Assembly (NCBI GenBank): GCA_014382245.1
Contig: JACNKC010000054.1
Span: forward strand, 631 to 64,630
Direction of reading: 5' to 3'
DNA length: 64,000 bases
Origin: Pseudomonadota bacterium
Lineage (GTDB): Bacteria > Desulfobacterota > Binatia > UBA1149
Position numbers and translations under genes: made by a program. Position 1 is the first letter of the stretch. Each line of letters begins with the position of its first letter. Shown piece after piece: positions 3,980 to 22,655 of the stretch. The notes under the pieces were generated by a model. That model saw nothing but the letters and a program-made list of their open reading frames with translations. It searched no databases and had not been told where the DNA came from.

Positions 3980-4004
3980 TTCGCGCCGCTCGTTCCCGCG
4001 CGGT

Positions 4005-4760: not shown

Positions 4761-4911
4761 GTGGTTGTTGCTAGTCCCCCGTCCCGCCCGAGGCAAGCGC
4801 GCGGCGCGGGTAAGTGCCGGCAGCAGAAAGACCTCGGCGAGGTGGCCTGTGGCCGGGCGTTCTGCAATAAGTCTTGCTTGCCCGCCTGCGCGCGGGGTGG
4901 AGAGGCATCGC

Positions 4912-5640
4912 GTGGAAAAACTTGTTTACGTTTTATGGAAGGATGGCGGTACCGACAGCGCGGCCTTTTCGGCTGCTTTGCGCGAGCAACTGCCCGCGCA
5001 GCTGCGCGGGGCGGGTGCATCGAGCATCGCTGTAAACCTGGCCGACGCCGACGTCGACTACGCTGCCGCCCAGCGCATGACGCGTTTTGATCCTGCGCCG
5101 GCAGCCGTCGTGTCGTTCTGGCTCGAGGACTCCGACCTGCGCGGGCCGCTGGAGCAGGCCTTGCATGCTTGCTGCGAAAAACTCGCCGGCTATCTCGTGG
5201 TCGAGTCGCTTCCGCTGGTCAACACCACGCACACCGCCGCGGTGGGGCAGCGCACTCCGGGCACCAACGTAATCGCGCTCATCGAGTGCCCGTCGACCAT
5301 GCCTTACGCCGACTGGGTGGAGCACTGGCACACCATCCACCGGCGCGTGGCCCTCGAAGTGCAGTGCACCTACGAGTACATACGCAACGAGGTCGTGCGC
5401 GCCCTGACCGACGACGCGCCGCCGTTTAACGCCATAGTCGAGGAGGGTTTTCCGACCGAGGCCGTCGTTGACCCCATGCTGTGGTACTGCGCCGATGGCA
5501 GCGACGACAAGTTGCAGGAAAATTTTGGACGCATGATGGAGAGCGTGGCTGCGTTTCTCGAAGTAGCGCGGGTGGAGTCCCACCCGATGTCGCAGTACGT
5601 TCTCGACGCAGCATTGCCGCGCAACCAGGGCCGGGACTAG
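4912..5640 (+). CDS. Hypothetical protein (about 240 aa, function unknown; possibly a duplicated Dabb/EthD-like alpha+beta barrel)
   Basis: Frame open from 4576, but the 5' part overlaps the convergent VOC gene. In-frame GTG starts at 4897 or 4912 (VEKLVYVLWKDGG...). No confident family assignment from sequence alone. Confidence 0.45.
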   Translation: MEKLVYVLWKDGGTDSAAFSAALREQLPAQLRGAGASSIAVNLADADVDYAAAQRMTRFDPAPAAVVSFWLEDSDLRGPLEQALHACCEKLAGYLVVESLPLVNTTHTAAVGQRTPGTNVIALIECPSTMPYADWVEHWHTIHRRVALEVQCTYEYIRNEVVRALTDDAPPFNAIVEEGFPTEAVVDPMLWYCADGSDDKLQENFGRMMESVAAFLEVARVESHPMSQYVLDAALPRNQGRD

Positions 5641-9173: not shown

Positions 9174-11555
9174 TCAGCCGCCCCATTCCCAGGCAGTTTC
9201 TACGCCGATGGTCCTCGGGTCGCCGTAGGTGTTGCCCGAAATACCGAAGGCGTCGCCGAAGTCGATGCCGTAGTTGCGGTATTCCTTGTCAAACAGGTTG
9301 CGTGCCCACAGGGCCAGCGTCAGCGTTCCGTCGGGCGTGGCCACGTCGCTCAGCTGCAGGCGGGCGTTCACCAGCGCGTATTGTCCCTGGGCGTTGTACT
9401 CGTTGTCTTTGCCCAGGAACACGACTTCGTCCTGCCAGTAGGCGTCGATCCTCGCCGACCAGGTGCCGTAGCTCGTCGGGGCAAAGGTGTAAGAGCTGCT
9501 GGCGGTTACGGTCACGTCAGGGGTTTGTATGAAGGCGCGATCATCGGAAACATCGACCTCGGTTTCAACCCCTGTACCGGGGTCCACCACTATCTCGGTG
9601 AACTCGTCGTACTCAGGGTCGATGAGCCCTACGCCCAGGCGCAGGTCCAGCCCGGCCATGGGCAGGGCCACGACCTCGATCTCGGCCCCGGTGATCTCGG
9701 CCTTTGCCGCGTTCTCCAGCGTAGTGACAGCACCCTGCAGCGGGTCAGCGCGAAACACGGTCACTTGCTTGTTGTCGTAGTCGCTCAGGAAGGCCGCCGC
9801 GTTGATGACCAGGCGGTTGTCGAGCAGCTCGCTCTTTACGCCCAGCTCGTAGGAGGTTACTTCTTCGGGGTCGTAGCCGGCCTCGAAGGTGGCCTGGCTG
9901 GTGGCCCTGCCGTTGAAGCCGCCGCTCTTGAAGCCCCGCGCTACCCTGGCGTAGGTCATCAGTTTGTCGGTGGCCTGCCACTTGACGTCGACCATGGGCG
10001 AAAAGTTATCCCAGTCGTCCTCTGCGCTGGACGAGAAGTCGAGAAAATCGCAAGGGATCACCCCGCCCAGCCCGTCCGACACTGCCACGCAGTCGTAGTT
10101 GCGGTCGAGTTTCTTTTTTTCGTAGGTGTAGCGCCCACCGGCGGTCACGCTCACCGAGTTGTTGACCTGGTAGGTCGCCTGCCCGTAGGGGGCCACCGAG
10201 TAGTTGTCGAAACTCACGTCGGAGATGAAATCGTTGACCCCGCCGAAGAATATCTGCCGGTTATCGGCGCTACCGTCTTCTTCGAAGTAGTAAAGGCCGG
10301 CAACGTACTGCAGGCGGTCGTCCATGGCGCTGCCGATGGCCTGCAGCTCCTGGCTCAGCTGGTCCTGCTCGATTTCGAGGGCAAACTCGGCAAAGGACAG
10401 TGGCGTGCCGTCGAGATCCTGGTTTTCGGTGGTCTCGAAACTGCGGAGCCCGGTGATCGACTTGATGGTTACGTCGCCCAGGTCGTAGCTCGCAACCAGC
10501 CCGTGCCCGCGAACGTCGGCGTCGTGTATCAAGGGGCTGTCAAAACCGTTGAACGAGGTCACGCGGTTGTTCGAGGTCGAATCGCTGCGATCGGGGTTTA
10601 TGAAAGGAGTGATAATGCCCGCCGGTATCCCGGCGCCAGGGTCGCCGAACTGGTTGAGCAGGTCCAGCGGTGAACCGGGCCTGAGCGCTGAGAGCTGGAA
10701 GGCCGTGGGCTCCTCGGTCGAGTGGTGAAAGTCAAAGTTGTAGTCCAGCGTCCAGCGGTCGTTGCTGGGTTCCCACCTAAGCGAGGTGTTGCCTGCCCAG
10801 CGGTCGAGGTTGTCGAGCTCGCTGCTGCCCGGGCCCGGGTTGTCAAAGAAGCCGTCGCGGGTTTCGAACGAAAAAGTCGTGCGTCCGTTGACCGTACCTG
10901 CGCTGGCATTGTCAACGAGCGGGAAGTCCAGCGAGGCGGTGTTCTTAAGGTACTCTTCGCTGCCCAGCGACAACTTGTTGCGAAAGCCCCAGTCGCCCGA
11001 CGGCTTGCGGGTGATGAGATTGATGGCGCCGCCCACCGTGTTGCGGCCGTAAAGTGAGCCCTGTGGTCCGCGCAGCACCTCGATGCGTTCGAGGTCGGCC
11101 ACCGAGAACAGCGAGCCGGCCGACTTGGCCACGTAGACCCCGTCGAGATACACGCCCACGGTTGGTTCCAGCGTCACCGCCGGGTCCGAGGTTATCAGGC
11201 CGCGAATGCTCACCGTCATGCCGCTGTTGCCGCCGGCGTTGGTGTGCATGCCCAGGTTGGGGGTCATGTGGGCGATGTCGATGACCTCCGCCGCACCGAT
11301 TTCCTCAAGGGTAGTGGCAGAGAAGGCGCTTATCGATAACGGCGCTTCCTGCAGCTTTTCTTCGCGCTTCTGCGCGGTGACGGTGATTTCTTCGACCTCG
11401 GTCTTGCGGAGGTCCTCGGCCAACACGGCGGTTGGTACCGAGACTCCCGTCCCGGCCAGTACTGTGCAGGCCGCGAGCGCGAGAAGTCGTTTCGCGTGTT
11501 TTTCTTCCAGGAGGCTTACCGGCGAGATTCCGGATGTGATCGTAAAATGAGACAT
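9174..11555 (-). CDS. TonB-dependent receptor
   Basis: Signal peptide, then TonB box-like EITVTAQKRE, plug and barrel motifs (RIEVLRGPQGSLYGRNTVGGAINLITRKP), C-terminal aromatic end ...AWEWGG. Start at the ATG on the minus strand at 11555 (MSHFTITS...). Confidence 0.9.
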   Translation of the reverse strand: MSHFTITSGISPVSLLEEKHAKRLLALAACTVLAGTGVSVPTAVLAEDLRKTEVEEITVTAQKREEKLQEAPLSISAFSATTLEEIGAAEVIDIAHMTPNLGMHTNAGGNSGMTVSIRGLITSDPAVTLEPTVGVYLDGVYVAKSAGSLFSVADLERIEVLRGPQGSLYGRNTVGGAINLITRKPSGDWGFRNKLSLGSEEYLKNTASLDFPLVDNASAGTVNGRTTFSFETRDGFFDNPGPGSSELDNLDRWAGNTSLRWEPSNDRWTLDYNFDFHHSTEEPTAFQLSALRPGSPLDLLNQFGDPGAGIPAGIITPFINPDRSDSTSNNRVTSFNGFDSPLIHDADVRGHGLVASYDLGDVTIKSITGLRSFETTENQDLDGTPLSFAEFALEIEQDQLSQELQAIGSAMDDRLQYVAGLYYFEEDGSADNRQIFFGGVNDFISDVSFDNYSVAPYGQATYQVNNSVSVTAGGRYTYEKKKLDRNYDCVAVSDGLGGVIPCDFLDFSSSAEDDWDNFSPMVDVKWQATDKLMTYARVARGFKSGGFNGRATSQATFEAGYDPEEVTSYELGVKSELLDNRLVINAAAFLSDYDNKQVTVFRADPLQGAVTTLENAAKAEITGAEIEVVALPMAGLDLRLGVGLIDPEYDEFTEIVVDPGTGVETEVDVSDDRAFIQTPDVTVTASSSYTFAPTSYGTWSARIDAYWQDEVVFLGKDNEYNAQGQYALVNARLQLSDVATPDGTLTLALWARNLFDKEYRNYGIDFGDAFGISGNTYGDPRTIGVETAWEWGG

Positions 11556-11614
11556 AAGTGTTTTTCCCCTCGTGTTTTGCGGCAGGGCTATGATTGCCCT
11601 GCGCCACCGGGGCA

Positions 11615-12976
11615 TCAAGGTTTATTAAGCAATTGAGCGTTTTTTTCTGCCGAGATGTGCGCAGTCCAACGCCGCGCGTCATCGAGGGCGGTGCTGTCGC
11701 CGCCCTCCCTTTCGATCTGCTCGAAGACCTTGAGGGCTTCGCCCAGGCGCTCGTCGGACGCCAGGCTTATGCCCAGCAACAGGCTGGCAGTACTCCATTG
11801 GCGTGAGCGGGCCGGGGTATCGTCGTTGTCGCGTTCGCCGTCGCGGGTGTGGCCGGGCTCGCTGTCCAGCGCGGCGAGGCAGCCCCTGAGCACGCGCTCG
11901 GCGTCGCGCCAGCGCTCGCCGGCGATGTACAGCCGCGCCAGTTGCAGGGCGGGGGGTCCGGCCGGCTCAAGGGCCGCGGCTTTTTCCAGGGGCACAAGGG
12001 CGCGCTCGCTTTCACGTGCCAGCAGGTAGGAGTCGGCCAGCAGTTGCCAGTCGTCCAGGCCGGGGTCCAGGACCTTGTCGGTGATGGCGTTGTCAACCAC
12101 CCGCGCCGCTATCCACGGCAGGTCGTGGTAGAGGTAGCGCCGGGCGAGCCGGCGCAGCTCCGGCGCGCGATCGAGCAGGCCCGCTTCCCAGGCCACCTGC
12201 TCTATGGCCAGCGCGTCGTCGTGGCGACCCAGCTCGCCGTACACTGCCGACAACTGCAAGAAGTAACGCTTGCGGGCAAAGCGTTGCACGAGTTCTTCGA
12301 GCAGTGGCGCCGCGGCTCCGTAGCGCTGTTGTTCGAGTTCGAGCGACACCAGCAGCTCGAGCCACGACCTGGCAGGCGTCTTGCTCAATTGAACCGCGTG
12401 GCGTGCAGGCTCGAGCGCGTCGGCGTGGCGTTCGAGCTGCACGTACACCGCGGCGAGCAGGTACCAGGCCGAACCGGCCGGCCGGTCGGTCTGCTCAAAC
12501 CACTGCTCGAGCGCGGCCAGGGCCTTGCCAAAGTTTTCGGTGGCCAGGTGTAGTTGGGCCAGGTTATAGCGGGTGTTGAGCATCGCGCTTTCGGGCAATG
12601 CGTCCTGGGCCAGGCACTTGTCGAACCAGAGGGCCGCTGCGGCGTAGTCTCCAAGTGCCGATGAAAGATAGCCACGGGCCTGGTAGAGCAGGGCGGTTTC
12701 GTGAGGGTTGAGCTTAGACCTGCCCGCGAGCTGGTCGAGAAGTTCGCCCGCCCCGCTCAGCTGCTCGGCTGCCAGCAGTTCGTGGATTTTTTCGAGCTTG
12801 CGGTAGGCGTACTCGCCCACCGTGTAGTTGCCAGGCCGGCCCGCGGCGCAGGCCTCGTGGGGTTGCAGCACTGTCGCCAGCAGCACGGTCGCGCCCAGCA
12901 TGGTCGTCAGCAGCGCGCCCAGCACGGCGCGCACTGTCGGCCAGCCATTGCTACGCGGCAGCCGGGTGGCCGTCAC
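11615..12976 (-). CDS. TPR repeat protein (TtpD-like component of a TonB2-type system), signal-peptide bearing
   Basis: Multiple 34-aa TPR-like repeats (ALLYQARGYLSSALGDYAAAALWFDKCL...). GTG start overlaps the tonB stop (GTGA). Confidence 0.7.
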   Translation of the reverse strand: MTATRLPRSNGWPTVRAVLGALLTTMLGATVLLATVLQPHEACAAGRPGNYTVGEYAYRKLEKIHELLAAEQLSGAGELLDQLAGRSKLNPHETALLYQARGYLSSALGDYAAAALWFDKCLAQDALPESAMLNTRYNLAQLHLATENFGKALAALEQWFEQTDRPAGSAWYLLAAVYVQLERHADALEPARHAVQLSKTPARSWLELLVSLELEQQRYGAAAPLLEELVQRFARKRYFLQLSAVYGELGRHDDALAIEQVAWEAGLLDRAPELRRLARRYLYHDLPWIAARVVDNAITDKVLDPGLDDWQLLADSYLLARESERALVPLEKAAALEPAGPPALQLARLYIAGERWRDAERVLRGCLAALDSEPGHTRDGERDNDDTPARSRQWSTASLLLGISLASDERLGEALKVFEQIEREGGDSTALDDARRWTAHISAEKNAQLLNKP

Positions 12977-13587
12977 CGCGTGCCCTCCAACGAAAAGTTC
13001 AGGCGCACGCGCACGCCCTGTCTTTCAACGGGCTGGCCGTCAACGAGACGGGGACGGTATTTCCAGCGGCGTATGGCGCGTATGGCGGCGCGGTTGAACA
13101 CCGTGCCGCCGCTGGTAGCGGTCACCCTGGGGCCGCGTACCGTGCCCACGGCCGTGATCGTGAACTCGATCTCCACCCAGCCCTCCAGCCCGCGTTCCTG
13201 GGCCGCCAGCGGGTACTGTGGGTTCACGCGCACCAGGGGCACTACGTCGGTGTCGCTGGGAGCGCCCAGCCACGGGCCGCCCGACATGTCGACCGTGGGA
13301 GTAAAATTCGATCCTGATTTCAACAGGTCCTGTTGCGGCAACTCGCGTGGCCGTGGTGCCGCCGGCGGTGGGGGCGGAGCCGGTGGGGGTTGGGCGCGAT
13401 CGGGTAGCTGCCGGTCACGCGCGCGCGTCTCGGAGTCTTTCTTCAGGCGCACGAACTCTATGCGTCCACCGTGAACGCTATCTTCGAGCGGTGCCTGTTC
13501 GGGCTCCACCAGCGCGCGCATCACCAGCAGCACTGCCAACGTCACGGCGGCCGACGCGGCGCCGAAAAGCAGGTAGCGCAGGGTCAT
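12973..13587 (-). CDS. tonB: Energy transducer TonB
   Basis: N-terminal TM anchor, Pro-rich spacer PPPAPPPPPAAPRPRELP, C-terminal TonB domain (YPLAAQERGLEGWVEIEFTI...GTV..RVNFSLE). Confidence 0.85.
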   Translation of the reverse strand: MTLRYLLFGAASAAVTLAVLLVMRALVEPEQAPLEDSVHGGRIEFVRLKKDSETRARDRQLPDRAQPPPAPPPPPAAPRPRELPQQDLLKSGSNFTPTVDMSGGPWLGAPSDTDVVPLVRVNPQYPLAAQERGLEGWVEIEFTITAVGTVRGPRVTATSGGTVFNRAAIRAIRRWKYRPRLVDGQPVERQGVRVRLNFSLEGTR

Positions 13588-13597
13588 CGGGCGGGGG

Positions 13598-14002
13598 TCA
13601 CTCCACTGCTTCCGCGGCTATCGACACGTTGGCTATGCCGGCAAGGCGGGCCGCGTCCATTACCTGCACGAGCAGGCCGTTTTTCGATTCGCGGTCGGCC
13701 TGTATAACCAGTGCGCCCTGTGGGTTCTCGGCGTGCATTTTTTCCAGGTTGGCACGCACGCTGCGCACGTCGACCGCGCGCCGGTCTATCCATACCTGCC
13801 CGTCACGGCTTATGGCCACCAATATGTTGCCGCGTTGCTCGCGTTCCGCGGTGGCCGCGTCGGGCTTGCTCACTTCTATGCCTGACTCCTTGACGAAGGA
13901 GGCCGTGACGATAAAAAAAATCAGCATGATGAACACGACGTCCAGCATGGGGGTCATGTTGATGTCGGTTTCTTCTTCCTGCCCTTTGCGTTTACGCCGC
14001 AT
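13598..14002 (-). CDS. exbD: Biopolymer transporter ExbD/TolR
   Basis: 134 aa; INMTPMLDVVFIMLIFFIV TM and periplasmic domain typical of ExbD. Confidence 0.9.
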   Translation of the reverse strand: MRRKRKGQEEETDINMTPMLDVVFIMLIFFIVTASFVKESGIEVSKPDAATAEREQRGNILVAISRDGQVWIDRRAVDVRSVRANLEKMHAENPQGALVIQADRESKNGLLVQVMDAARLAGIANVSIAAEAVE

Positions 14003-14017
14003 AAAATCGTCCGTGTT

Positions 14018-14578
14018 TCAGATGCTTCCAGGGCCGGCGTGCCCAGCGCTCACCATGCGGTCGCCGAGGGCCTGGCCTTCGCGTTGAGCGTGGCGTTCGA
14101 GCTGGCTGACCACCAGCAGGCCCGACAACGCCGCTACCATGCCGGCCATGGTGGGTATGGTGGCGCGCCCCACCCCGGCCGCCATGGCGCGGGCGTTGCC
14201 GTTGCCCGACACCGCCATTACGTCGAAGACCTCTATCATGCCGGTCACCGTGCCCAGCAGCCCGAGCAACGGGCACACGGCCACCAGCGTGCGTATGAGC
14301 AGCAGGCCTTTTCCGAGTTCCTCGCGGGTGCCCGCCACCAGCATGCGCTTGATGTCGTGGGCCCCGCGCGACGAACGTTCGGGTAGCCTTAGCCAATGAT
14401 CGAGCGCGAGCTGCTTTACCGCGGGATAATCGGCGCGCTTGTACCACAGCCTTTCGAGTATCAGCGCCCACATCACGAAGGTCACCAGCGCGATAACCGC
14501 TAGTACCGGGCCGCCGGCTTCGAGGAAATCACGCGCCAGTAGAACGGGTGTCAGCAGCCAGGCCAGGACGTCAGCCAT
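14018..14578 (-). CDS. exbB: MotA/TolQ/ExbB proton-channel family protein
   Basis: 186 aa; LLGLLGTVTGMIEVF motif of the ExbB/TolQ TM2-3 region. Confidence 0.9.
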   Translation of the reverse strand: MADVLAWLLTPVLLARDFLEAGGPVLAVIALVTFVMWALILERLWYKRADYPAVKQLALDHWLRLPERSSRGAHDIKRMLVAGTREELGKGLLLIRTLVAVCPLLGLLGTVTGMIEVFDVMAVSGNGNARAMAAGVGRATIPTMAGMVAALSGLLVVSQLERHAQREGQALGDRMVSAGHAGPGSI

Positions 14579-15968
14579 TGCCGCCGTCCTTCTTTGATCT
14601 CAGCACGACCATGCCGGCTGCCTGCTGCTCGAGCACGTCGTTTATACGCCGGACGCCGCTCGTGACCAGCGCGTGCAACAGCAGCAGCGGGATGGCCACG
14701 CACAGGCCGAGCATGGTTGTGACCAGCGCTTCGGATATGCCGCCGGCCATCAGTCGCGGGTCGCCGGTGCCGAACAGGGTGATGGCCTGAAAGGTTCGTA
14801 TCATGCCGGTCACGGTGCCCAGCAGTCCCAGCAGTGGCGCCACCACCGACACCGTGCGCACCACCCACAGGTAGCGGTCCAGGCTGGTGGTTTCCTTGAG
14901 GATGGCTTCGTCGAGAAGCAGTTCGAGCGACTCTACGTCGGCGGTGGTGTTTGTATCGGCCACCGCGAGCACGCGTCCCAGTGCGTTACCGGCGCTGGCA
15001 TCGGGCGACTGCTGCTGGGCGCGTACCCTGCGGTCTTCGGCCAGCGTGACCAGTAGCCGCCACAGCCCCAGTACCGCTCCCGCAGCGCCGAGCAACAGTA
15101 TGACCGCTCCCACCGCGCGACCCTGGGCTATGCGTTCGCCCAGGCTTGGGGTCTGCACCAGCAGCGACAGCAGCACGCCGCGCGAGGGGTCGAGCGCCAG
15201 CGCGGCGCTGCCTGGCCCTGCTTTCTCGAAACGGCGCACGCTGGCCAGGTGTCTCGACGAGGGTTGACGGCCGAGTTCGGCCAGGCGTTTTATCCCGGGA
15301 AGCCACTGCAGGTAGTGCCCGTCCAGGAGCACGTTGAAGGCGCCCACGCGCAGCACTTCGCGCTCGCGTTCTTTTCCGTCGGCGCCCAGAACCGGGGCGC
15401 GAAAGCGCAGCACCCGGCCCTGTTCGGTCATTTCCTGCTGAAGGGCGTACCAGAGTTTTTCGAGCGACTCGGCCTGCGGGAGCTTGCGGCTTGAAGCCAG
15501 TTCGCCAAGGAACTCACCGCGATTGGTTATCTGGGCGCTGGTGATCGATTGCTCGAGGTGCCCCAGGGTGTCACCTGCCACCTGCCTGACGGTACCGAAG
15601 GCTTCGCCCAGTGTGCCCAGGCGTTCGGCAAGCGTGCCCTCGAGCTGCGTGATGTGCTGCTCGTTGTTTTCAAAGTCCTGCTCGAGCTGTTGGCTGCGTG
15701 CTTCCTGCAGGGCCAACTCGTTGCGCGCGGCGCTGAGCAGGCGTTTCTGCCGGTCACGATCACGGGCAAAGCTGCTTTCGCGCTCGCGGTTTTCACCGCG
15801 CTCGCGCTCCCATCCGCTGCGGACCGTGGAGAGCAATTCGGCCAGCGTTGCGGGTTTCTTTGTGCCAGCGTCCACGCCAGGGGAGGCGCTGTCGGCCGCA
15901 CCCACGGGCACGGCGGCCATTGCCGCCAGCAAGATAGTGTTCGCCAGCAACAAGGCGCAGCGCTTCAC
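14571..15968 (-). CDS. Large MotA/TolQ/ExbB family protein with an N-terminal periplasmic coiled-coil domain (TtpC-like)
   Basis: C-terminal LLGLLGTVTGMIRTFQAI ExbB motif preceded by about 300 aa of coiled-coil. GTG start 15968 overlaps the DUF3450 stop (GTGA); signal-like N-terminus VKRCALLLANTILLAAMAAVPVGAA. Confidence 0.8.
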   Translation of the reverse strand: MKRCALLLANTILLAAMAAVPVGAADSASPGVDAGTKKPATLAELLSTVRSGWERERGENRERESSFARDRDRQKRLLSAARNELALQEARSQQLEQDFENNEQHITQLEGTLAERLGTLGEAFGTVRQVAGDTLGHLEQSITSAQITNRGEFLGELASSRKLPQAESLEKLWYALQQEMTEQGRVLRFRAPVLGADGKEREREVLRVGAFNVLLDGHYLQWLPGIKRLAELGRQPSSRHLASVRRFEKAGPGSAALALDPSRGVLLSLLVQTPSLGERIAQGRAVGAVILLLGAAGAVLGLWRLLVTLAEDRRVRAQQQSPDASAGNALGRVLAVADTNTTADVESLELLLDEAILKETTSLDRYLWVVRTVSVVAPLLGLLGTVTGMIRTFQAITLFGTGDPRLMAGGISEALVTTMLGLCVAIPLLLLHALVTSGVRRINDVLEQQAAGMVVLRSKKDGGNG

Positions 15969-16825
15969 GACTGGTCTCCGCCGCTTCCTGCCGGCTGCCG
16001 AGCGGTGGGTAGTGGCGTGGCTGCTGGAAGCGGCAGCTCGAGCAGGGCCGGCGCGGTCTGCTCGCGGGCCACCGCAAGCCCCTTGCGTATGGCCGCGCCG
16101 TAGTCGCCGTCGAGGTCGGTCCACGCGCCGGTGTCGCGGTCCCAGGCTCCCGTGAGTTTGCCGTCGAGCGAACGATAGAGCAGTGCCAAGCGGCCCACGC
16201 GCAGGAAGTCCACCGTGCGCTCTGTGTCACCCAGGCTAAGCGTGCCGCGATAGGCCTCCAGGGTACGGCCGTACTCGTTTTCGACCTGGTACGCTTCGAG
16301 CACGCGACGGTATTTTTCGGAGTCGGTAACGTCGGCCCTGTCCATCATGGCCCTGAGCGAGGCCACCCTGTTGGCTCGCTCGTCGGCGAGGAAAGGAATA
16401 TCGAGCTCGACGAAGCTCTCCAGTGAGTCGATCATGCGCAGCATCAGCGGTGAGAGTTGACGACCGACCAGGGCCACCTGCTCGATCTGTTCGCCCAGCG
16501 AATCTATGTCTTCTTTTTGCCTGGTCAGCAGGCGGTTGAGCTGGACGTTGTAGACGCGCAGTGACTTGACCTGCTCGAGCACGCGGCGGTACTCGGCGAT
16601 CGTGGTGTCGGTTTCGTCTGCCAGCCGATCTATCTTCTGCTGCGAGAGCAGCGAATCGGCGTTGGCCTTATCGCGGATCTCGATGGCCAGGTCCAGTGCC
16701 TCGGGGGGATCGTCTGCGGTTGCTGTTGCCGCCAGTACTGCCGCCAGGAACAAGGTCGTGGTGACCGAGGCCACGCTTGCTCGCCAGGGAAGGATAGGGC
16801 GGTTATGAAAAACAAGTGGCTTCAC
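15965..16825 (-). CDS. DUF3450 domain protein (first gene of TonB2-type operon, TtpB-like)
   Basis: Signal peptide plus coiled-coil rich protein (LLSQQKIDRLADETDTTIAEYRRVLEQVKSLRVYN...) in the conserved position upstream of the large ExbB homolog. Start approximate (GTG 16825). Confidence 0.65.
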   Translation of the reverse strand: MKPLVFHNRPILPWRASVASVTTTLFLAAVLAATATADDPPEALDLAIEIRDKANADSLLSQQKIDRLADETDTTIAEYRRVLEQVKSLRVYNVQLNRLLTRQKEDIDSLGEQIEQVALVGRQLSPLMLRMIDSLESFVELDIPFLADERANRVASLRAMMDRADVTDSEKYRRVLEAYQVENEYGRTLEAYRGTLSLGDTERTVDFLRVGRLALLYRSLDGKLTGAWDRDTGAWTDLDGDYGAAIRKGLAVAREQTAPALLELPLPAATPLPTARQPAGSGGDQS

Positions 16826-16971
16826 ATCTGGACTCCAGGGTTTACGATCATCGCGGTACCGCATGCGCCGGGCTGCCTTGCGACGTCTGCTGCGTATAAC
16901 GTAGAAGCGCTAACTATTACAACGACTGCCTGGTATGCACGGGCGTGAGCGATGACGAGGAGCACAAGACG

Positions 16972-17790: not shown

Positions 17791-17910
17791 CGTCGCTCTC
17801 CCCCTTCGGCGTTCTTTTGTGCTGGCCGGTGGTTGTGCGTAGCGTCTGGGGGTCGTTGGTTTACCGTGTCGGCGGTGAAAAAAGGGAGGCCTCGTCCCGG
17901 AGGTGTAATC

Positions 17911-19638
17911 GTGAACTGGTATTCGTTTTCTGGTCTTGGTTTTGGTAGCAGGCTGTCGCCGCGCGTGACGGCAGCCGTGGCGCTGTTTGCGTTACTGGTG
18001 GGAACGGCTGGCTGCGAGTATTTCCTGGGTGCCTTGCTTCAGCGTGCGCCCCGCCTGGCGGGCGCTCCCCTGGTGTACGGGCCGGCCACGGGCGTGGGGC
18101 TTGTGCCGTCTGACGATTCAATCGCTGCGAGCTCGTCGTGGCAGCTCAGTTTCGACATAGGCGCCGGCTGGCTGGAGACCTATCACGCCGAGGCTATCTG
18201 GCCAAACGACTTTGTTTTCAACGGTTTCCTGGCCGTGGGTTCGGTGGGTAGCGTGGTGGGCAGTCACGGTTTCGACTTCGATTTTGACGGCGTGGCTGAT
18301 TACTCGGTCTCGGTGTTGTCTATCGATGACAACAACGCCTGGGTAGACGCCCTGCCCAACGGCATCCAGGACGCCAACGAGCCCACCGTGAGCGTGGGAC
18401 CTTACCCGCCACCGAGACTACCCGGTGAGCCGGCAGACCAGGCAGGTGCCGACGCGCGGAAGCACAGCAGCAGGTTTGCCATCTATACAACGCTTCCGCT
18501 GGGTGGCGACGGCGACGCGAGTACCATAACCGGGTTCGGGCCAATGCGTATTGTTTCAACCATAGGGGCGGGTTTGATCACAAATCCTGCCACGTCGGGA
18601 GACTACAGTGTGTCGGCGTCGTTCTGGTCGGTGGACCCGGACACCGACGGCCCCGACGATGGCCTGGGCGATTCGCCCATATACCTTCCAGGGGGTACGA
18701 CGATCCTTATTTCCGGGCCCATGTGCGGCGACACCGACGGCAGCGGAGACGTTACGGCCAGCGACGCGCTCAGGGCGCTGCAGGCGGCTGTGGGTGTGGG
18801 TAGCTGTGCCCTGGATTTCTGCGATGTGGTCAACGCCGACGGTGATGTTACCGCCTCCGATGCTTTGGCCATACTGCAGAGGGCCGTGGGAATCCCGGTT
18901 GCCATCGCCTGCCTGGCCGACGGATCTTTGACCGGTTGCCAGGCAAGCCTGGTGCCCACCTGCGGCGGCGTGTGTCGTGCAGGAGAGGTCTGCGCCAGTG
19001 ATTTTTTTGATCCGTCGCGCTGCGAGTGCGTGCCTGGCTGCGAGCTCGAAACCTCTCCCGCCTGCGGCGTGGGCGATTGCGCTGTATACCCGGGCACGAC
19101 CTGCCAGCAGCTCACCCTTGCCGTGCCGGCGCTGGGACAACAGGCCGAGTTGTGCGACTGCATAGAACCGGGTTTGCAGGTCTGCGGCGACTCGGCTGGT
19201 TCGGGTTGCGACGGGGCCTGCTCGCCGGGTCGCCTTTGCGGCGACGACGGACAGGGGGGATGCAGCTGCACAGCTTTGCCCGTGCAGGGCGATTGCGCGC
19301 AAGCAACGGCTCCTGCCTGTGGCGGTACCTGTGCGCCGGGGGGGAACGTATGCGAGGACAACGGTTCGGGCTCCTGTGCCTGTGTCAGCGCAACGGGGAA
19401 CGACAGTTGCGAGGAACAGGCCTGGCCGTCCTGTGGTGGAAGCTGTGAAAGCGGCCGCCTCTGTGCCGCCGGCATACTGGGCGACTGCGAATGCGTTAAC
19501 CCCTGCGAACTGGGTGAGGCCCCGGCCTGCGGCGGCTCCTGCCTGCAGGCCGGCGACGAGTGCATGGAAATGACGGGTACGGTGGGTGGTGTGACCTTGA
19601 CCTTCTGCAATTGCCTGGGCCTGGGCCCTGCGCCGTGA
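17911..19638 (+). CDS. Secreted protein with two dockerin-like Ca-binding repeats and a C-terminal array of six cysteine-rich modules
   Basis: GTG start with GGAGG Shine-Dalgarno 5 nt upstream; signal peptide ...AAVALFALLVGTAGC. Two repeats GDTDGSGDVTASDALRALQAAVG and DVVNADGDVTASDALAILQRAVG match the dockerin type I repeat pattern (DxNxDGxVxxxDxxxLxxxLxG). Then six P[AS]CGGxC...C.C modules (about 35-45 aa each, 5-6 Cys each). Confidence 0.7.
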   Translation: MNWYSFSGLGFGSRLSPRVTAAVALFALLVGTAGCEYFLGALLQRAPRLAGAPLVYGPATGVGLVPSDDSIAASSSWQLSFDIGAGWLETYHAEAIWPNDFVFNGFLAVGSVGSVVGSHGFDFDFDGVADYSVSVLSIDDNNAWVDALPNGIQDANEPTVSVGPYPPPRLPGEPADQAGADARKHSSRFAIYTTLPLGGDGDASTITGFGPMRIVSTIGAGLITNPATSGDYSVSASFWSVDPDTDGPDDGLGDSPIYLPGGTTILISGPMCGDTDGSGDVTASDALRALQAAVGVGSCALDFCDVVNADGDVTASDALAILQRAVGIPVAIACLADGSLTGCQASLVPTCGGVCRAGEVCASDFFDPSRCECVPGCELETSPACGVGDCAVYPGTTCQQLTLAVPALGQQAELCDCIEPGLQVCGDSAGSGCDGACSPGRLCGDDGQGGCSCTALPVQGDCAQATAPACGGTCAPGGNVCEDNGSGSCACVSATGNDSCEEQAWPSCGGSCESGRLCAAGILGDCECVNPCELGEAPACGGSCLQAGDECMEMTGTVGGVTLTFCNCLGLGPAP

Positions 19639-19654
19639 CTTACCTGGGAGTGGC

Positions 19655-20062
19655 GTGAGCCCGGCCGTCGCCAAGAGCCAGGCAGCCGCAGAGATTGCGC
19701 GCGACTTTATTGACGCGCTCTCGAGCGGTGATACCGAGCGCATACTGGCCTGTTATACAGACGACGCGACGGTATGGACGGCCGGGTCACTGCCCATATC
19801 GGGCCTGCACGACCTCGACGAGATCAGGGCTCTGTGCGATGGATTGCTGGGGGCCTTTCCCGACGGGCTGAAGTTTACGATTACCGCCATGACGATAGGC
19901 GACGACCGGGTAGCCATAGAAGCCGACGGCCACGGCCTGCACGCAAGCGGGCGCGTTTATGACCAGCGCTACCACTTCCTGCTCGAGTTGCGTGACGGCA
20001 AGGTCGCGCAGATGAAAGAGTACTTTGACACCGAGCTCGCGCGCGAGGTGCTGCTGGGCTGA
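19655..20062 (+). CDS. NTF2-like / SnoaL-like (ketosteroid isomerase-like) domain protein
   Basis: 135 aa; ...ILACYTDDATVWTAG... pattern typical of the SnoaL_2/NTF2 superfamily. Confidence 0.6.
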   Translation: MSPAVAKSQAAAEIARDFIDALSSGDTERILACYTDDATVWTAGSLPISGLHDLDEIRALCDGLLGAFPDGLKFTITAMTIGDDRVAIEADGHGLHASGRVYDQRYHFLLELRDGKVAQMKEYFDTELAREVLLG

Positions 20063-20083: not shown

Positions 20084-21412
20084 TCAGCGTCCGGCGGCTA
20101 TGATCGCGCTAAGCGCGAAGAAATCCTCGGTGGTGCCTTCTTTTTCGCCCAGGTTCACGTACCAGCCCTGCTCCTCGGGAAACAGATCACTCGGAAGTGA
20201 GCAGTGGGTGGCGTGCTCCAGTTGCATGTCGACCATGGTGATAGACGGGCGGTAGGCTACCTCCCATTCCGAACCGTAGCGCGCTCCGGGTCGTGGGTGG
20301 GTGGCGAACTTGTAGTTGTTGACCCACATCTTCCACAGCTCACCGGCGTGGTCGTACATCTCGGTGTAGGGGATGCGATGCACCTCCTTGTCGATGTAGA
20401 TGATCCGCTTGGAGTAGGCGTACTGCGGCAGCTTGGACTTGCCGGCCACTATCCACACGTTGCGGGGTTCCCACTTGTCGTCGTGCATGAAATCGGCCGA
20501 AGGAGCCGCCCACTTCACGGGCAGGTGTTCGGCGTTCATGGTGCCGAGGATGGTTTTCTCGCCGAGGAATTTCCATTCCATCCACGCCGGGTTGCCCTGG
20601 TAACCCTCGTAGCTGTCGGCGTCGGTGTCCTGGCCGAAGAGCGCGTCGCTGCGCTGGGCCGACGATAGTCGGCGCACTCTCCTCAGGGCGGGCAAGTACA
20701 GCCAGGAGTTGTCGTGCTTGGTATGGTCGAGGTGGCGCACCATGGTGAAGCCTACGCCCTTGAGATCGAAGGGTTCGATCAACGGATACAGGGCTTCCTT
20801 GAAGCGCGCCTGGTCAATGTTTTCCTCGAAGGCGGGTATGGGCTCAACCTCGGTTCGTTCGATCATGTAAAGGCGGCGTATGTGGTCTATGAGAAAGTGC
20901 CGTTCCACTGTCAGGCGATCGCCCCTGCTGCCCACCGCACCCGTGTCGCAGTCAAAGTTTCGAATGTCCGAATCGTCGGGTGCGATGGCGGCATTGAAGT
21001 TGAAGATCAGCTTGGTGGCTATCATCGGATCGTTGGCGTCCACCGTGGGAAACGGTAGTCCGGCTACGTGATCGATCATGTGGGTGCCGTCCTCGGAAAG
21101 CTTGACCTGGCCGGAGTACTTTTCGGTGGCGGCTATGAAAGGGGGCGTGTGCGAGAGCCGACGGTGTTCAGAAACCTTGATTTCCAGGCCGCGGTCGATG
21201 ACCCACAGCATTCCCGGGCCGAAGAATTCTTTCCATTCGGTGACGTTGACGCCGTCGATCTTTGTCCCTGGCGGTGGCGGATCTACAGCCGCCGCCGGGG
21301 CGGGCAAGACCGCGCAGGCAGCAAGCAGCATTGCGGTAGCCAGGGCCGGCCTCCAACCCGCCTTGCAGGAGCTGATGCGTAGGGTGCCAGGCTCAGACCG
21401 ATGGATTTTCAT
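20084..21412 (-). CDS. DUF1329 family protein (LolA-like, periplasmic/outer-membrane associated), signal-peptide bearing
   Basis: 442 aa from ATG 21412 (MKIHRSEPGTLRISSCKAGWRPALATAMLLAACAVLPAPAAA). Family assignment from memory of DUF1329 architecture; moderate certainty. Confidence 0.55.
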   Translation of the reverse strand: MKIHRSEPGTLRISSCKAGWRPALATAMLLAACAVLPAPAAAVDPPPPGTKIDGVNVTEWKEFFGPGMLWVIDRGLEIKVSEHRRLSHTPPFIAATEKYSGQVKLSEDGTHMIDHVAGLPFPTVDANDPMIATKLIFNFNAAIAPDDSDIRNFDCDTGAVGSRGDRLTVERHFLIDHIRRLYMIERTEVEPIPAFEENIDQARFKEALYPLIEPFDLKGVGFTMVRHLDHTKHDNSWLYLPALRRVRRLSSAQRSDALFGQDTDADSYEGYQGNPAWMEWKFLGEKTILGTMNAEHLPVKWAAPSADFMHDDKWEPRNVWIVAGKSKLPQYAYSKRIIYIDKEVHRIPYTEMYDHAGELWKMWVNNYKFATHPRPGARYGSEWEVAYRPSITMVDMQLEHATHCSLPSDLFPEEQGWYVNLGEKEGTTEDFFALSAIIAAGR

Positions 21413-21518
21413 GCTTTCTCTCCCGTGGGCCGGGTGCGGCGCTGCCCGATGATTGCCCAGCCGGGGGCTGGGTGCAAGGCCTGTTTCCCTAAGGCCTGCG
21501 CTCGTGGGAGACAGGAGC

Positions 21519-22655
21519 ATGGAAAACCAGACCCTCGCGCCCTTGTCGCAGGCGGCATGGAAACAATTGGTCGAGTTGCTGGCGGGTGGAGAAGAGAGTT
21601 TCCTGGCTCCCCACCGCGGGGTGAAGCTCGAGCACGACCAGGCCTCGGGCTACCGCTCGCTGATCCACCTGCTCGGCTACGCCGTTGACCTCTACATGGA
21701 CAACGACCCGCTGCGGCCCACGCTGGTGCAGCTGGCCTCGCCGGTGCGCAAGATGCTGGGCGACAACGTCGATTCGCACTATCATTTTACCCAGCTCGAC
21801 CCCACGCGCAGCTACCGGTTGTACGGGCGCAAGGGCAATCACTGTTACCTGGGCTTCTGCGTTTACGCCGGCCCGCGCGACGGCTCATGGTCGGATCGTA
21901 TCGCCGCCAATATGTCGCACAGGGACATCGAGTTTGAAGACAACGGTGCCTTCGAGTTGTCGCTCGTGCCCGCGGCGTCGCTGCCTGGCACTGGCGATAA
22001 CGGCCCCTCCAGAAATGATGCGAAGAACGTAATCCTCCTCGACGAGGACGTGAGCTGTCTCATCGTGCGCCAGTATTTTTTTGACCGCGACGAGGCCGAG
22101 CCGGCCGAGCTCGAGATAGAGATGACCGAGGACATCGGCCCTCCCGCCCCGCTGTCGGACCAGGAGATGGCCGACCGTTTGCGCGCGGCGACGCGTTTTG
22201 TCGAGCAGACGATGGGTGCGGTGCCCATGCCCGATCTTGGCGAGGCCAACGACTTCCTGGGCTTTATAGAGTTTGACAAGAACGCCAGTGGCTGGGGCAC
22301 GACCGATAACGTGTACGCGCTGGGCAACTACAGCCTGGCCGACGACGAGGCGCTGGTCGTGGAGGGCCACCCGCAGCCCTGCTGTTACTTCGGCCTGCAG
22401 TTGTGGAACCGCTACATGCAGTCGCTCGATTACCGCTACCAGCGCGTGGCCATCAACGGTGAGCAGCTCGAGTTCGAGGACGACGGCAGCTTCCGCGTGG
22501 TCATAAGCGCCGTCGATCCAGGCCTACCCAACTGGATTAGCACCGCCGGCCACCCCGAGGGCGTGTTTTTCTGTCGATGGCTGCTCGCCGACGGAGATCT
22601 CGATATGCCCAGCTGCAGCGTGGTGCCGGTCGACAGCCTCCGCCCTGGCGGCTGA
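21519..22655 (+). CDS. Conserved hypothetical protein (possibly DUF1214/DUF1254-like), divergent from the DUF1329 gene
   Basis: 378 aa from MENQTLAPLSQAAW...; long clean ORF with good codon usage. Family call uncertain. Confidence 0.55.
   Translation: MENQTLAPLSQAAWKQLVELLAGGEESFLAPHRGVKLEHDQASGYRSLIHLLGYAVDLYMDNDPLRPTLVQLASPVRKMLGDNVDSHYHFTQLDPTRSYRLYGRKGNHCYLGFCVYAGPRDGSWSDRIAANMSHRDIEFEDNGAFELSLVPAASLPGTGDNGPSRNDAKNVILLDEDVSCLIVRQYFFDRDEAEPAELEIEMTEDIGPPAPLSDQEMADRLRAATRFVEQTMGAVPMPDLGEANDFLGFIEFDKNASGWGTTDNVYALGNYSLADDEALVVEGHPQPCCYFGLQLWNRYMQSLDYRYQRVAINGEQLEFEDDGSFRVVISAVDPGLPNWISTAGHPEGVFFCRWLLADGDLDMPSCSVVPVDSLRPGG

What the first reader, a model, noticed from the sequence alone, without database searches (positions are those of the whole stretch)
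17911..19638. Secreted protein combining dockerin-like Ca-binding repeats with six tandem cysteine-rich modules
After a signal peptide and a roughly 290-aa Asp/Gly-rich region, the protein has two 23-aa repeats (GDTDGSGDVTASDALRALQAAVG and DVVNADGDVTASDALAILQRAVG) that match the dockerin type-I duplicated EF-hand-like segment used for cohesin binding. These are followed by six modules of the form P[AS]CGG[ST]C...C...C.C (5-6 Cys each), which resemble small disulfide-rich EGF-like or granulin-like repeats. Dockerin-bearing proteins are rare outside cellulolytic Firmicutes, and no cohesin/scaffoldin is visible in the window. The Cys-rich array suggests an extracellular adhesive or binding function, possibly docking to an unknown partner.
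Basis: partly seen in the sequence, partly recalled or inferred. Interest (0 to 1): 0.6.

Follow-up and report, generated by a model that had tools for sequence, protein, structure and literature searches.

The report
Binatia surface protein: dockerin-like plus cysteine array
This gene from an uncultured marine Binatia bacterium encodes a real secreted, probably lipid-anchored, very acidic three-part protein (an unannotated calcium-loop beta-sandwich, a diverged dockerin-like module with four conserved cysteines, and a rare unannotated unit of six 6-cysteine modules); its function is unknown, and it most likely sits on or outside the cell and docks to an unidentified partner.

Summary
Window 17911-19638 (+) is a 575-aa gene with three parts after a signal peptide that looks like a lipoprotein signal.

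1. Residues 36-271 are a folded beta-sandwich, not low complexity. It belongs to a family of at least 67 unannotated metagenomic proteins.
2. Residues 272-334 are a dockerin-like pair of calcium-loop/helix segments with four conserved Cys.
3. Residues 343-568 are six modules of exactly six Cys each.

The dockerin call is borderline for this protein alone: Pfam Dockerin_1 scores 17.4 bits in context and 22.7 bits in isolation, against a cut-off of 22.9. It is sound at family level: 28 of 42 sibling modules hit Dockerin_1, and the best solved-structure matches are all type I dockerins.

The six-module unit is real and rare. All 36 Cys are invariant across homologous units, and only 114 of 1.84 billion representatives match. 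It has no Pfam, NCBIfam or PDB relative, so neither "EGF-like" nor "granulin-like" is supported.

The host is Candidatus Binatia. The same 4-Cys dockerin-like module is found on most of 263 other secreted proteins, so dockerins are not rare here. No cohesin was seen.

The gene lies in a strain-variable locus: flanks are 87-94% identical to a related contig, but the gene is only 57% identical and has a different domain architecture.

Function is inferred, not shown.

The parts
17899..17903 (+). Shine-Dalgarno-like GGAGG, 7 nt upstream of the GTG start
   Evidence: Read directly from the sequence.
17911..19638 (+). Whole gene: 575 codons plus stop
   Evidence: ORF list. A 99% identical gene call exists in an independent assembly (P0001).
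17911..18015 (+). Signal peptide (residues 1-34) ending in the lipobox-like G-T-A-G|C35, so a probable lipoprotein
   Evidence: The sequence has R14 and R18, a hydrophobic stretch VTAAVALFALLVG, then TAG-C. The Cys count is 41 = 36 (array) + 4 (dockerin-like) + 1, leaving C35 as the only unpaired Cys. Several N-domain homologues have clear lipoboxes: P0062, P0065, P0072, P0074 and P0075. No signal-peptide or lipoprotein predictor was available.
18016..18723 (+). N-terminal beta-sandwich domain (residues 36-271) with conserved Asp-rich motifs DFDFDG, LPLGGD and SVDPDTDGPDDG
   Evidence: A family of 67 proteins at E<=0.01, none carrying a precomputed Pfam domain over this region. AF2 gives pLDDT 86 and pTM 0.80, mostly beta strands with two short helices. 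Foldseek against the PDB finds only weak Ig-like sandwich matches, TM 0.28-0.36 by query length. A profile of the query domain and three homologues (A4) finds no solved-structure relative.
18724..18912 (+). Dockerin-like module with four conserved Cys (C272, C299, C304, C334)
   Evidence: Pfam Dockerin_1 scores 17.4 bits in context and 22.7 bits in isolation, against a cut-off of 22.9. 28 of 42 siblings hit Dockerin_1. Top solved-structure profile hits are type I dockerins. The AF2 model has two helices at the expected places and matches Doc48S locally, TM 0.52 by target length.
18727..18795 (+). Segment 1: a canonical 12-residue calcium loop D274-T-D-G-S-G-D-V-T-A-S-D285, then a helix
   Evidence: Only 16 of 93 sibling modules keep a canonical loop 1.
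18823..18891 (+). Segment 2: an atypical 13-residue loop D305-V-V-N-A-D-G-D-V-T-A-S-D317, then a helix
   Evidence: Of 93 siblings, 90 have a 12-residue loop 2. The query is the only one with 13 residues.
18937..19029 (+). Cys module 1 (residues 343-373), short type, joined to module 2 by 3 residues
19039..19161 (+). Cys module 2 (residues 377-417), long type with an extended beta-hairpin between Cys4 and Cys5
19183..19269 (+). Cys module 3 (residues 425-453), short type
19294..19383 (+). Cys module 4 (residues 462-491), short type
19408..19494 (+). Cys module 5 (residues 500-528), short type, joined to module 6 by 3 residues
19504..19614 (+). Cys module 6 (residues 532-568), long type with an extended beta-hairpin

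Best explanation
**What it is.** The gene encodes a secreted, strongly acidic modular protein of a marine Candidatus Binatia bacterium. It is probably anchored by an N-terminal lipid. Calcium binding and disulfide bonding are inferred from its motifs.

**Shown**
1. A real gene with a signal peptide and three independently evolving parts.
2. An N-terminal beta-sandwich domain from an unannotated family. Relatives usually carry other C-terminal domains, and one carries a canonical dockerin.
3. A diverged dockerin-type pair of loop-helix segments with four conserved cysteines.
4. A unit of six position-specific 6-Cys modules. Elsewhere this unit occurs as a stand-alone protein (signal peptide, dockerin-like module, one unit) or with two units.

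**Inferred mechanism**
- After Sec export and lipidation at Cys35, the periplasmic disulfide machinery forms 18 disulfides in the array and 2 in the dockerin-like module.
- Calcium fills the dockerin loop or loops and the Asp-rich loops of the N-domain.
- The dockerin-like module then acts as a calcium-dependent protein-protein docking tag. It would bind a still unidentified partner shared with the many other Binatia secreted proteins that carry the same tag.
- The rigid cysteine array serves as a stalk or binding surface, and the beta-sandwich serves as a ligand-binding head.

**Exposure.** The gene sits in a strain-variable locus, which is what one expects of an exposed surface protein under diversifying selection.
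For: **Gene and start.**

**Host.** The window's PEPCK is 97% identical to that of an uncultured Candidatus Binatia genome assembled from a metagenome. Array homologues are named Candidatus Binatia (P0191 and P0209).

**Dockerin-type module.**

**The tag is modular and widespread.**
- 263 proteins match at E<=0.001. Most carry only the 4-Cys module, joined to unrelated cargo such as PQQ sugar dehydrogenase, endonuclease/exonuclease/phosphatase, laminin-G, Kelch, PD40, BNR or FG-GAP domains.
- In the 93 proteins parsed, the module is N-terminal 41 times, C-terminal 48 times and internal 6 times.

**The array is a conserved unit.**
- All 36 Cys are invariant, and module lengths are position-specific.
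- The profile matches 114 representatives at E<=1e-3 and 12 at E<=1e-30, out of 1.84 billion.
- AF2 of residues 266-575 gives pLDDT 82 and pTM 0.65, with a beta-hairpin in each module.

**N-domain.**. P0029 is an N-domain joined to a canonical dockerin.

**Acidity.** The mature protein has 66 Asp/Glu against 13 Lys/Arg.

**Variable locus.**
- Flanking DNA is 87-94% identical to contig L005, and the SnoaL-like neighbour is 92% identical in protein.
- This gene is only 57% identical in protein and 68% in DNA to L005's gene. L005's gene has a dockerin-like module plus two units and no N-domain.
- L088 has the same SDR gene upstream.
Against: - No partner is known. No cohesin Pfam hit was found in the window ORFs scanned or in six related loci.
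- This protein's own Dockerin_1 score is below the cut-off.
- Its second calcium loop has a one-residue insertion, and most relatives have a degenerate first loop. Two-site calcium binding as in cellulosomal dockerins is therefore not assured.
- Lipidation, disulfide connectivity, calcium binding and surface exposure are all unverified.
- Family members share no gene neighbourhood outside the near relatives of this window (L002, L005, L088), so context gives no functional hint.
Confidence: 0.5

Rival explanations
1. The six-module cysteine array is itself the receptor for the 4-Cys dockerin-like tag. It would be a scaffoldin analogue that lacks cohesins. Array proteins, which always carry one tag themselves, would then chain together and display the many tagged enzymes of Binatia. 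The window protein would be a lipid-anchored base of that assembly.
For: - Every array protein recovered whose N-terminus is complete also carries the tag.
- Array proteins and tag-only proteins both occur in genomes named Candidatus Binatia.
- The unit has six position-specific, non-interchangeable modules, and units are duplicated in some proteins, as cohesins are in scaffoldins.
- No cohesin was found.
Against: - There is no direct evidence of binding.
- Tag-only proteins are also named from Limnocylindrales and Dadabacteria, where no array protein was identified.
- Array proteins are rare, about 25 clusters, against hundreds of tagged proteins.
- The AF2 model does not place the protein's own tag confidently against the array: pLDDT in the tag region is 51-87.
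Confidence: 0.1
2. The dockerin-like module has no dedicated protein partner. It is a calcium- and disulfide-stabilised structural or linker element, or a glycan- or cell-envelope-binding element, as proposed for other non-cellulosomal dockerins. The protein is then simply a soluble or envelope-associated binding protein. Its activity would lie in the N-domain or in the array.
For: - Non-cellulosomal dockerins without cohesins are common and of unknown role (Peer et al. 2009, via ref. 42 of PMC10066038; that paper suggests an adhesin role).
- Loop 1 is degenerate in 77 of 93 siblings, unlike the dual-binding cellulosomal dockerins.
- No cohesin was seen.
Against: - The same about 65-aa module is conserved across very different cargo proteins and at either end of the protein. 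This pattern is typical of a shared interaction or sorting tag.
- The helix faces, motif SDAL..L..AVG, are the most conserved part. This suggests a conserved binding surface rather than only a fold-stabilising core.
Confidence: 0.27
3. The cysteine array is a metal-binding or redox-active element, metallothionein-like or sequestering copper or zinc, rather than a disulfide-bonded scaffold.
For: - The array is 15% Cys.
- Among the weak structural neighbours of the N-domain is the copper-binding protein YcnI.
- The protein is very acidic.
Against: - It is an exported protein with an even number of Cys, six, per module.
- The conserved Pro and Gly positions (CPxGxxC) and the predicted beta-hairpins are typical of disulfide-rich extracellular modules.
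- There are no His- or Met-rich motifs.
- The YcnI match is weak, TM 0.35 by query length. The N-terminal histidine that binds copper in YcnI (from the literature on that protein, not checked here) has no evident counterpart.
Confidence: 0.06
4. The gene is not real: a chance ORF in GC-rich DNA or a chimeric assembly.
For: Long overlapping ORFs exist on the opposite strand at 18556-19743 and 18603-19610, as expected in DNA of 65% GC.
Against: - Each of the three parts has many homologues.
- An independent assembly carries the same gene.
- There is a ribosome-binding site and a signal peptide.
- Both AF2 models are confident.
Confidence: 0.01

Closest known systems
Type I dockerin (Pfam PF00404), e.g. 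the Clostridium thermocellum Xyn10B/XynY dockerin (PDB 1OHZ, 2CCL) and the CelS dockerin (1DAQ, 2MTE)
   Same: - Two tandem segments of about 22 residues, each a 12-residue EF-hand-type calcium loop followed by a helix.
- Dockerin_1 is the only Pfam family hit.
- The top solved-structure hits for the family profile are these dockerins.
- The AF2 model matches Doc48S locally, TM 0.52 by target length.
   Different: - It has four conserved Cys, probably two disulfides, which the aligned canonical dockerin sequences lack.
- The score is just below Pfam's cut-off.
- Loop 2 has 13 residues here, and loop 1 is degenerate in most siblings.
- The host is an uncultured Binatia bacterium with no sign of a cellulosome.
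- No cohesin was found.
- The cargo is not carbohydrate-active.
Non-cellulosomal dockerin-like modules (Peer et al. 2009, FEMS Microbiol Lett 291:1; cited in PMC10066038, where nine such domains in a giant Omnitrophota ORF are suggested to act as adhesins)
   Same: Dockerin-type modules on secreted proteins of non-cellulolytic organisms, with an unknown partner.
   Different: - This is a distinct 4-Cys subfamily that is strongly expanded in Binatia and a few other uncultured lineages.
- It is coupled to a specific cysteine-rich unit.
- I did not check whether this subfamily has been described. Searches for Binatota plus dockerin found no paper.
[quoted passage not shown]
   Same: - The concept is similar: tandem acidic Cys-rich repeats in a secreted or surface protein next to a recognition domain, in a polymorphic locus.
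- Some 4-Cys dockerin-like proteins (P0211) also carry TIGR02232 repeats.
   Different: - TIGR02232 does not hit this array or its relatives.
- The motif and Cys spacing differ.
- There is no MYXO-CTERM tag.
EGF-like domains
   Same: - Modules of about 30-40 aa with six Cys.
- A CPxGxxC...CxC beta-hairpin core.
- Sub-threshold profile hits to PvRipr EGF7-8 (E 0.73) and NELL1 (E 1.5).
   Different: - No significant hit in Pfam, NCBIfam or the PDB.
- The repeat register is fixed by the first and last Cys of the array. It puts the C-x-C at the end of the module, not at Cys4 and Cys5.
- There is no G-aromatic motif after the C-x-C.
- The fold search found nothing.
Ig-like beta-sandwich proteins: TTHA1873, YcnI (DUF1775), BslA, fimbrial subunits, type II cohesins
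   Same: The N-domain model is mostly beta strands and its weak structural neighbours are these sandwiches.
   Different: - TM is only 0.28-0.36 by query length and sequence identity is 6-13%.
- No sequence relationship was found.
- The N-domain is larger, 236 aa, with Asp-rich DxDxDG-type loops.

Membership tests
Type I dockerin (PF00404) | Two tandem segments of about 22 residues, each a calcium-binding loop followed by a helix | tested here: met
   Residues 273-295 and 305-327. AF2 places helices at residues 283-293 and 315-325.
Type I dockerin (PF00404) | Canonical 12-residue loops with Asp, Asn or Ser at positions 1, 3 and 5 and Asp at position 12, in both segments | tested here: inconclusive
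   Loop 1 is canonical (D-T-D-G-S-G-D-V-T-A-S-D). Loop 2 has 13 residues and is unique among 93 siblings.
Type I dockerin (PF00404) | Score at or above Pfam's gathering cut-off of 22.9 bits | tested here: not met
   17.4 bits for the whole protein and 22.7 bits for the isolated module. 28 of 42 siblings match at E<=0.01, the best at 1.4e-12.
Type I dockerin (PF00404) | Dockerin fold | tested here: inconclusive
   Foldseek finds local matches to 2MTE (TM 0.52 by target length, rmsd 4.2 over 60 columns) and 5M2O_B, but at E above 1. pLDDT in the module is 51-87.
Type I dockerin (PF00404) | Binds a cohesin module | not testable with these tools
   No Cohesin Pfam hit in 40 window ORFs scanned or in the precomputed annotation of related loci. 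The whole genome was not available.
EGF-like domain | A significant match to an EGF profile | tested here: not met
   No Pfam hit at E<=10. The module profile against the PDB finds EGF proteins only at E 0.73-1.5.
EGF-like domain | Disulfide pattern 1-3, 2-4, 5-6 | not testable with these tools
   Model coordinates are not returned, so connectivity is unknown.
Granulin | A 12-Cys motif with four CC doublets | tested here: not met
   No adjacent Cys anywhere in the protein (Cys positions listed). No Pfam hit.
Myxobacterial cysteine-rich repeat (TIGR02232) | A match to the TIGR02232 profile | tested here: not met
   NCBIfam finds nothing for the query or for the array relatives P0192, P0209, P0090 and P0093. 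It does hit P0211.
   Dockerin_1 is the only Pfam family at E<=10. The isolated module also gives weak EF-hand hits only.
Bacterial lipoprotein | A signal peptide ending in a lipobox with an invariant Cys | tested here: inconclusive
   G-T-A-G-C35 fits the permissive PROSITE PS51257 residue classes (recalled from memory), but has Thr rather than Leu at position -3 and no Lys or Arg in the first 7 residues. C35 is the only unpaired Cys. Homologues with clear lipoboxes exist. No predictor was available.
Six-module Cys unit family (defined here) | 36 conserved Cys in six modules of fixed order and length, preceded by a 4-Cys dockerin-like module | tested here: met
   About 25 clusters share the architecture.

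The most novel reading that the evidence does not exclude
Binatia, and perhaps a few other uncultured lineages, have a protein-docking system that works without cohesins. A dockerin-like tag with four conserved Cys, found on hundreds of secreted enzymes and binding proteins, would dock onto proteins built from the six-module cysteine-rich unit. The window gene, with its lipid anchor and extra beta-sandwich head, would be a strain-variable, cell-anchored base of such an extracellular assembly.
Probability: 0.08. Interest if true: 0.8.

Novelty: new variant of a known kind. Interest (0 to 1): 0.48.

Why it matters
- Dockerin-like modules outside cellulosomes have been catalogued since 2009, but their partners and roles are largely unknown. 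Here one lineage, Binatia, an uncultured phylum-level group, uses a distinct 4-Cys dockerin-like module on a large and varied set of secreted proteins. That makes the partner question tractable, for example by pull-downs with one conserved tag.
- The gene also defines two domain families that no curated library covers, both with confident predicted structures. One is a calcium-loop beta-sandwich. The other is a 6 x 6-Cys unit with no solved structural analogue found.
- The gene lies in a locus that differs between closely related strains. That pattern points to an exposed protein involved in interactions with phages, predators, neighbouring cells or surfaces.
- If none of this holds, it remains an ordinary hypothetical secreted protein of an uncultured bacterium.

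Tried and rejected
- **Curated family libraries.** Pfam and NCBIfam on the whole protein and on relatives find nothing beyond weak Dockerin_1 and EF-hand hits.
- **Solved structures, by sequence.** Profiles of the single Cys module (A7), the six-module unit (A2) and the N-domain (A4) find nothing significant.
- **Solved structures, by fold.** Foldseek of both AF2 models against the PDB gives only weak Ig-like sandwich hits for the N-domain. It gives nothing for the array.
- **Species-representative genomes.** The alignment-based scan failed for lack of a conserved stretch. The single-protein scan found no relative.
- **Literature.**
  - Binatota plus dockerin returned no paper.
  - The 2026 preprint on cysteine-rich repeats describes a different motif, Cx6-9Cx5-7Cx8-11Cx7-8CC.
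  - Peer et al. 2009 is not held.
- **DNA-level signals.** Promoter and terminator scans and DNA repeat scans were uninformative.
- **Gene neighbourhoods.** Six family members beyond the near relatives of this window have no conserved partner gene.
- **N-domain as a cohesin.** I considered this because of weak type II cohesin hits in Foldseek (E 0.014-0.04, TM 0.28 by query length). That is too weak to claim.
Full report
**1. The observation**

The ORF list shows a + strand ORF ending at 19638. An independent JGI gene call uses the same start for a 99% identical 575-aa protein (P0001). That JGI contig is 99.6% identical in DNA to the window over 14 kb, so the architecture is not an assembly artefact.

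The protein has 41 Cys. One is at position 35, four are at 272, 299, 304 and 334, and 36 lie between 343 and 568. The two quoted 23-aa repeats are at residues 273-295 and 305-327.

The six Cys modules are at 343-373, 377-417, 425-453, 462-491, 500-528 and 532-568. Each has exactly six Cys. There is no repeat at the DNA level, so the modules are old, diverged duplications.

**2. Anatomy**

*(a) N-terminus.* Residues 1-34 form a signal peptide: R14, R18, the hydrophobic stretch VTAAVALFALLVG, then T-A-G|C35. C35 is the only Cys without a possible partner. Several relatives of the next domain have clear lipoboxes. I therefore read it as a probable lipoprotein signal. No predictor was available, so this is inferred.

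*(b) Residues 36-271.* This is not a low-complexity Asp/Gly stretch.
- A profile of this region finds 67 metagenomic proteins at E<=0.01, most of them far below 1e-30. All that carry a source name are called hypothetical, and none has a precomputed Pfam domain over this region.
- Conserved motifs are DFDFDG, LPLGGD and SVDPDTDGPDDG. They resemble DxDxDG-type calcium-binding loops. That resemblance is my own knowledge and was not tested.
- AF2 with 65 sequences gives pLDDT 86 and pTM 0.80, a fold that is mostly beta strands.
- Foldseek against the PDB gives only weak Ig-like sandwich neighbours: TTHA1873, YcnI, BslA, fimbrial subunits and type II cohesins. TM is 0.28-0.36 by query length.
- A profile of the query domain and three homologues (A4) finds no solved-structure relative.
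- Most relatives join this domain to a different C-terminal domain of about 130 aa. One, P0029, joins it to a canonical dockerin.

*(c) Residues 272-334, the dockerin-like module.*
- Dockerin_1 is the only Pfam family found at E<=10, at 17.4 bits in context and 22.7 bits for the isolated module. The cut-off is 22.9.
- At E<=0.01, 28 of 42 homologous modules hit Dockerin_1, the best at 1.4e-12.
- Profiles of the module family against solved structures return type I dockerins (XynY/Xyn10B, CelS, ScaB, ScaH and others) as the top ten hits, the best at E 1.5e-3.
- The AF2 model has helices exactly at the two SDAL..L..AV stretches. It matches Doc48S and a Ruminococcus group 1 dockerin locally.
- Four Cys are invariant in the family. 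The canonical dockerin sequences aligned have no Cys at those positions.
- In this protein loop 1 is canonical and loop 2 has one extra residue. In the 93 modules I could parse, the reverse is the rule. Loop 2 is a canonical 12-residue loop in 79. Loop 1 is canonical in only 16.

*(d) Residues 343-568, the cysteine array.*
- All 36 Cys are invariant in five aligned copies of the unit. The Cys columns are invariant or at least 90% conserved wherever the 16-row alignment has enough rows.
- Module lengths are position-specific in ten proteins.
- Modules 1-2 and 5-6 are short-long pairs joined by three residues. Modules 3 and 4 are short.
- AF2 of residues 266-575 with 16 rows gives pLDDT 82 and pTM 0.65. 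Each module has a beta-hairpin, and modules 2 and 6 have long hairpins.
- An exhaustive HMMER search of 1.84 billion representatives finds 114 proteins at E<=1e-3 and 12 at E<=1e-30.
- The close ones share one architecture: signal peptide, 4-Cys dockerin-like module, then one or two units.
- More distant hits carry long tandem arrays of a related single module. Its consensus is PxC-x5-P-x-C-[GDN]-G-x-C-P-x-G-x-x-C-x6-9-C-x-C, seen in 678 distinct modules.
- None of these has a Pfam or NCBIfam hit or a solved relative.
- The whole mature protein is very acidic, with 66 Asp/Glu against 13 Lys/Arg.

**3. Host and distribution**

The window's PEPCK is 97% identical to that of an uncultured Candidatus Binatia genome assembled from a metagenome. 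The next best hit is another Binatia genome at 70%. Array homologues P0191 and P0209 are named Candidatus Binatia. An older record in the P0192 cluster is named Deltaproteobacteria bacterium.

The 4-Cys dockerin-like module is far more widespread than the array. A profile of module plus array finds 263 proteins at E<=0.001. Only about 25 clusters of these have the array. The rest join the module to other domains. These include PQQ-dependent sugar dehydrogenase, endonuclease/exonuclease/phosphatase, laminin-G-like, Kelch, PD40, FG-GAP, BNR/sialidase-like, multihaem cytochrome and alpha/beta-hydrolase domains.

Named sources for these are Binatia, Limnocylindrales and Dadabacteria. The module sits just after the signal peptide (41 cases), at the C-terminus (48) or internally (6). 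That is the behaviour of a mobile tag.

**4. Context**

Neighbouring genes are as follows.
- Upstream on the minus strand lie a TonB/ExbB/ExbD/DUF3450/TPR/TonB-dependent receptor cluster, then an SDR gene on the plus strand.
- Downstream lie a SnoaL-like gene 16 nt away, DUF1329 (minus strand), a 400-aa unknown, an amidohydrolase, a DegT aminotransferase, another SnoaL-like gene, another SDR and an MFS transporter.

No Cohesin hit was seen in the 40 window ORFs scanned. No other dockerin-like module or Cys module exists in any frame of the window.

Contig L005 (NCBI GCA_001623305.1) shares the downstream genes at 87-94% DNA identity. Its SnoaL-like protein is 92% identical. Its gene at this position, P0192, is different. 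It has a dockerin-like module plus two six-module units and no N-domain, and it is only 57% identical in protein and 68% in DNA.

A Binatia contig, L088, has P0191 (also two units) directly downstream of an SDR that is 53% identical to the window's SDR. The locus is thus conserved in position but variable in content. Two further secreted-protein genes near it, DUF1329 and the 760-aa ORF at 28590-30872, are present in the window and absent from L005.

Other family members have unrelated neighbours.

**5. How it probably works**

Shown: an exported, modular, acidic protein built from three mobile parts.

Inferred:
- Lipid anchoring at C35.
- Disulfide bonding of all 40 remaining Cys.
- Calcium loading of the dockerin-like loop or loops and the N-domain Asp loops.
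- Docking through the dockerin-like module to a partner shared with the other tagged proteins.
- The array acting as a rigid stalk or binding face, and the beta-sandwich as a ligand-binding head.

The strain-level replacement of the gene between conserved flanks is what one expects for an exposed protein under diversifying selection.

I put 0.5 on this overall reading. The main rival, at 0.27, is that the module has no dedicated partner and is a structural or envelope-binding element. A more novel rival, at about 0.1, is that the array itself is the receptor for the tag. Metal binding by the array (0.06) and an artefact (0.01) are unlikely.

**6. Comparison with known families**

The module works like, and is homologous to, type I dockerins. 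Strict membership for this protein alone fails Pfam's cut-off by 0.2-5.5 bits. Cohesin binding, the defining function, could not be tested.

The array is not EGF-like by any significant test. It cannot be granulin-like, because it has no CC doublets. It is not the myxobacterial TIGR02232 repeat. The closest analogy in concept is the acidic Cys-rich stalk of the polymorphic myxobacterial receptor TraA (PMC6372800, PMC6626042).

It is contradicted by the literature (Peer et al. 2009, cited in PMC10066038) and.

**7. Verdict**

This is a new variant of a known kind: a non-cellulosomal dockerin-bearing secreted protein. It carries two domain families that no curated library covers. It also points to a lineage-wide tag whose partner is unknown. 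Function is not established. Interest is moderate, at 0.48.

**Limits**
- No model coordinates, so no disulfide map.
- No signal-peptide predictor.
- No whole-genome census for cohesins.

Noticed in passing
window 28590-30872 (+): A 760-aa secreted protein with no Pfam hit. It has a signal peptide, a duplicated Lys/Cys-rich N-terminal motif, a Cys-rich stretch and a BNR-like STDGGATF motif. The gene is absent from the otherwise 89-94% identical contig L005, which runs straight from the MFS gene to the methyltransferase gene.
   Followed up: partly
window 20084-21520 (-): The DUF1329 gene next to the target is present in the window and in L002 but absent from L005. This is a second gene-content difference at the same variable locus.
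   Followed up: partly
window 21453-22655 (+): A 400-aa ORF with no Pfam hit. It is conserved in the syntenic contig L005 as a 378-aa gene.
   Followed up: no
window 9174-16864 (-): A complete TonB-dependent uptake cluster lies divergent from the SDR and target gene pair. In order it holds a TonB-dependent receptor, a TPR protein, TonB, ExbD, two ExbB/MotA genes and DUF3450. No link to the target was established.
   Followed up: no
window 17911-19638: Third-position GC of the target ORF is 0.71, measured on the longer TTG-start ORF 17833-19638, against 0.70-0.86 for the other 53 ORFs picked. Together with the strain-level replacement of the gene, this hints at acquisition by recombination. Amino-acid composition could also explain it.
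   Followed up: no
proteins P0090, P0093, P0095: Long tandem arrays (up to 15 or more) of a related single 6-Cys module, followed by a shared C-terminal domain. That domain carries the motif ...SYNVYR...YLVTG.N..GEGSLG...RPN..CP, which looks fibronectin-type-III-like. There is no Pfam or NCBIfam hit. This is a broader unannotated repeat family.
   Followed up: partly
proteins P0210-P0213: Proteins with two 4-Cys dockerin-like modules interleaved with myxobacterial-type cysteine-rich repeats (TIGR02232 hit in P0211). The tag can thus occur in multiple copies and together with a different Cys repeat.
   Followed up: no
window 3245-5640: Three consecutive ORFs (3245-4030 minus strand, 4045-4533 plus, 4576-5640 plus) have no Pfam hit at E<=1e-4.
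   Followed up: no
proteins P0084, P0207: In these array proteins the dockerin-like module has an extra Cys in helix 1 (TDCLL) and another in the second helix (ALICLQ). In P0080 and P0192 the second conserved Cys is lost and a new Cys appears in helix 1 (ALYCLQ). This is consistent with the two helices packing against each other, and it could help work out the disulfide map.
   Followed up: no
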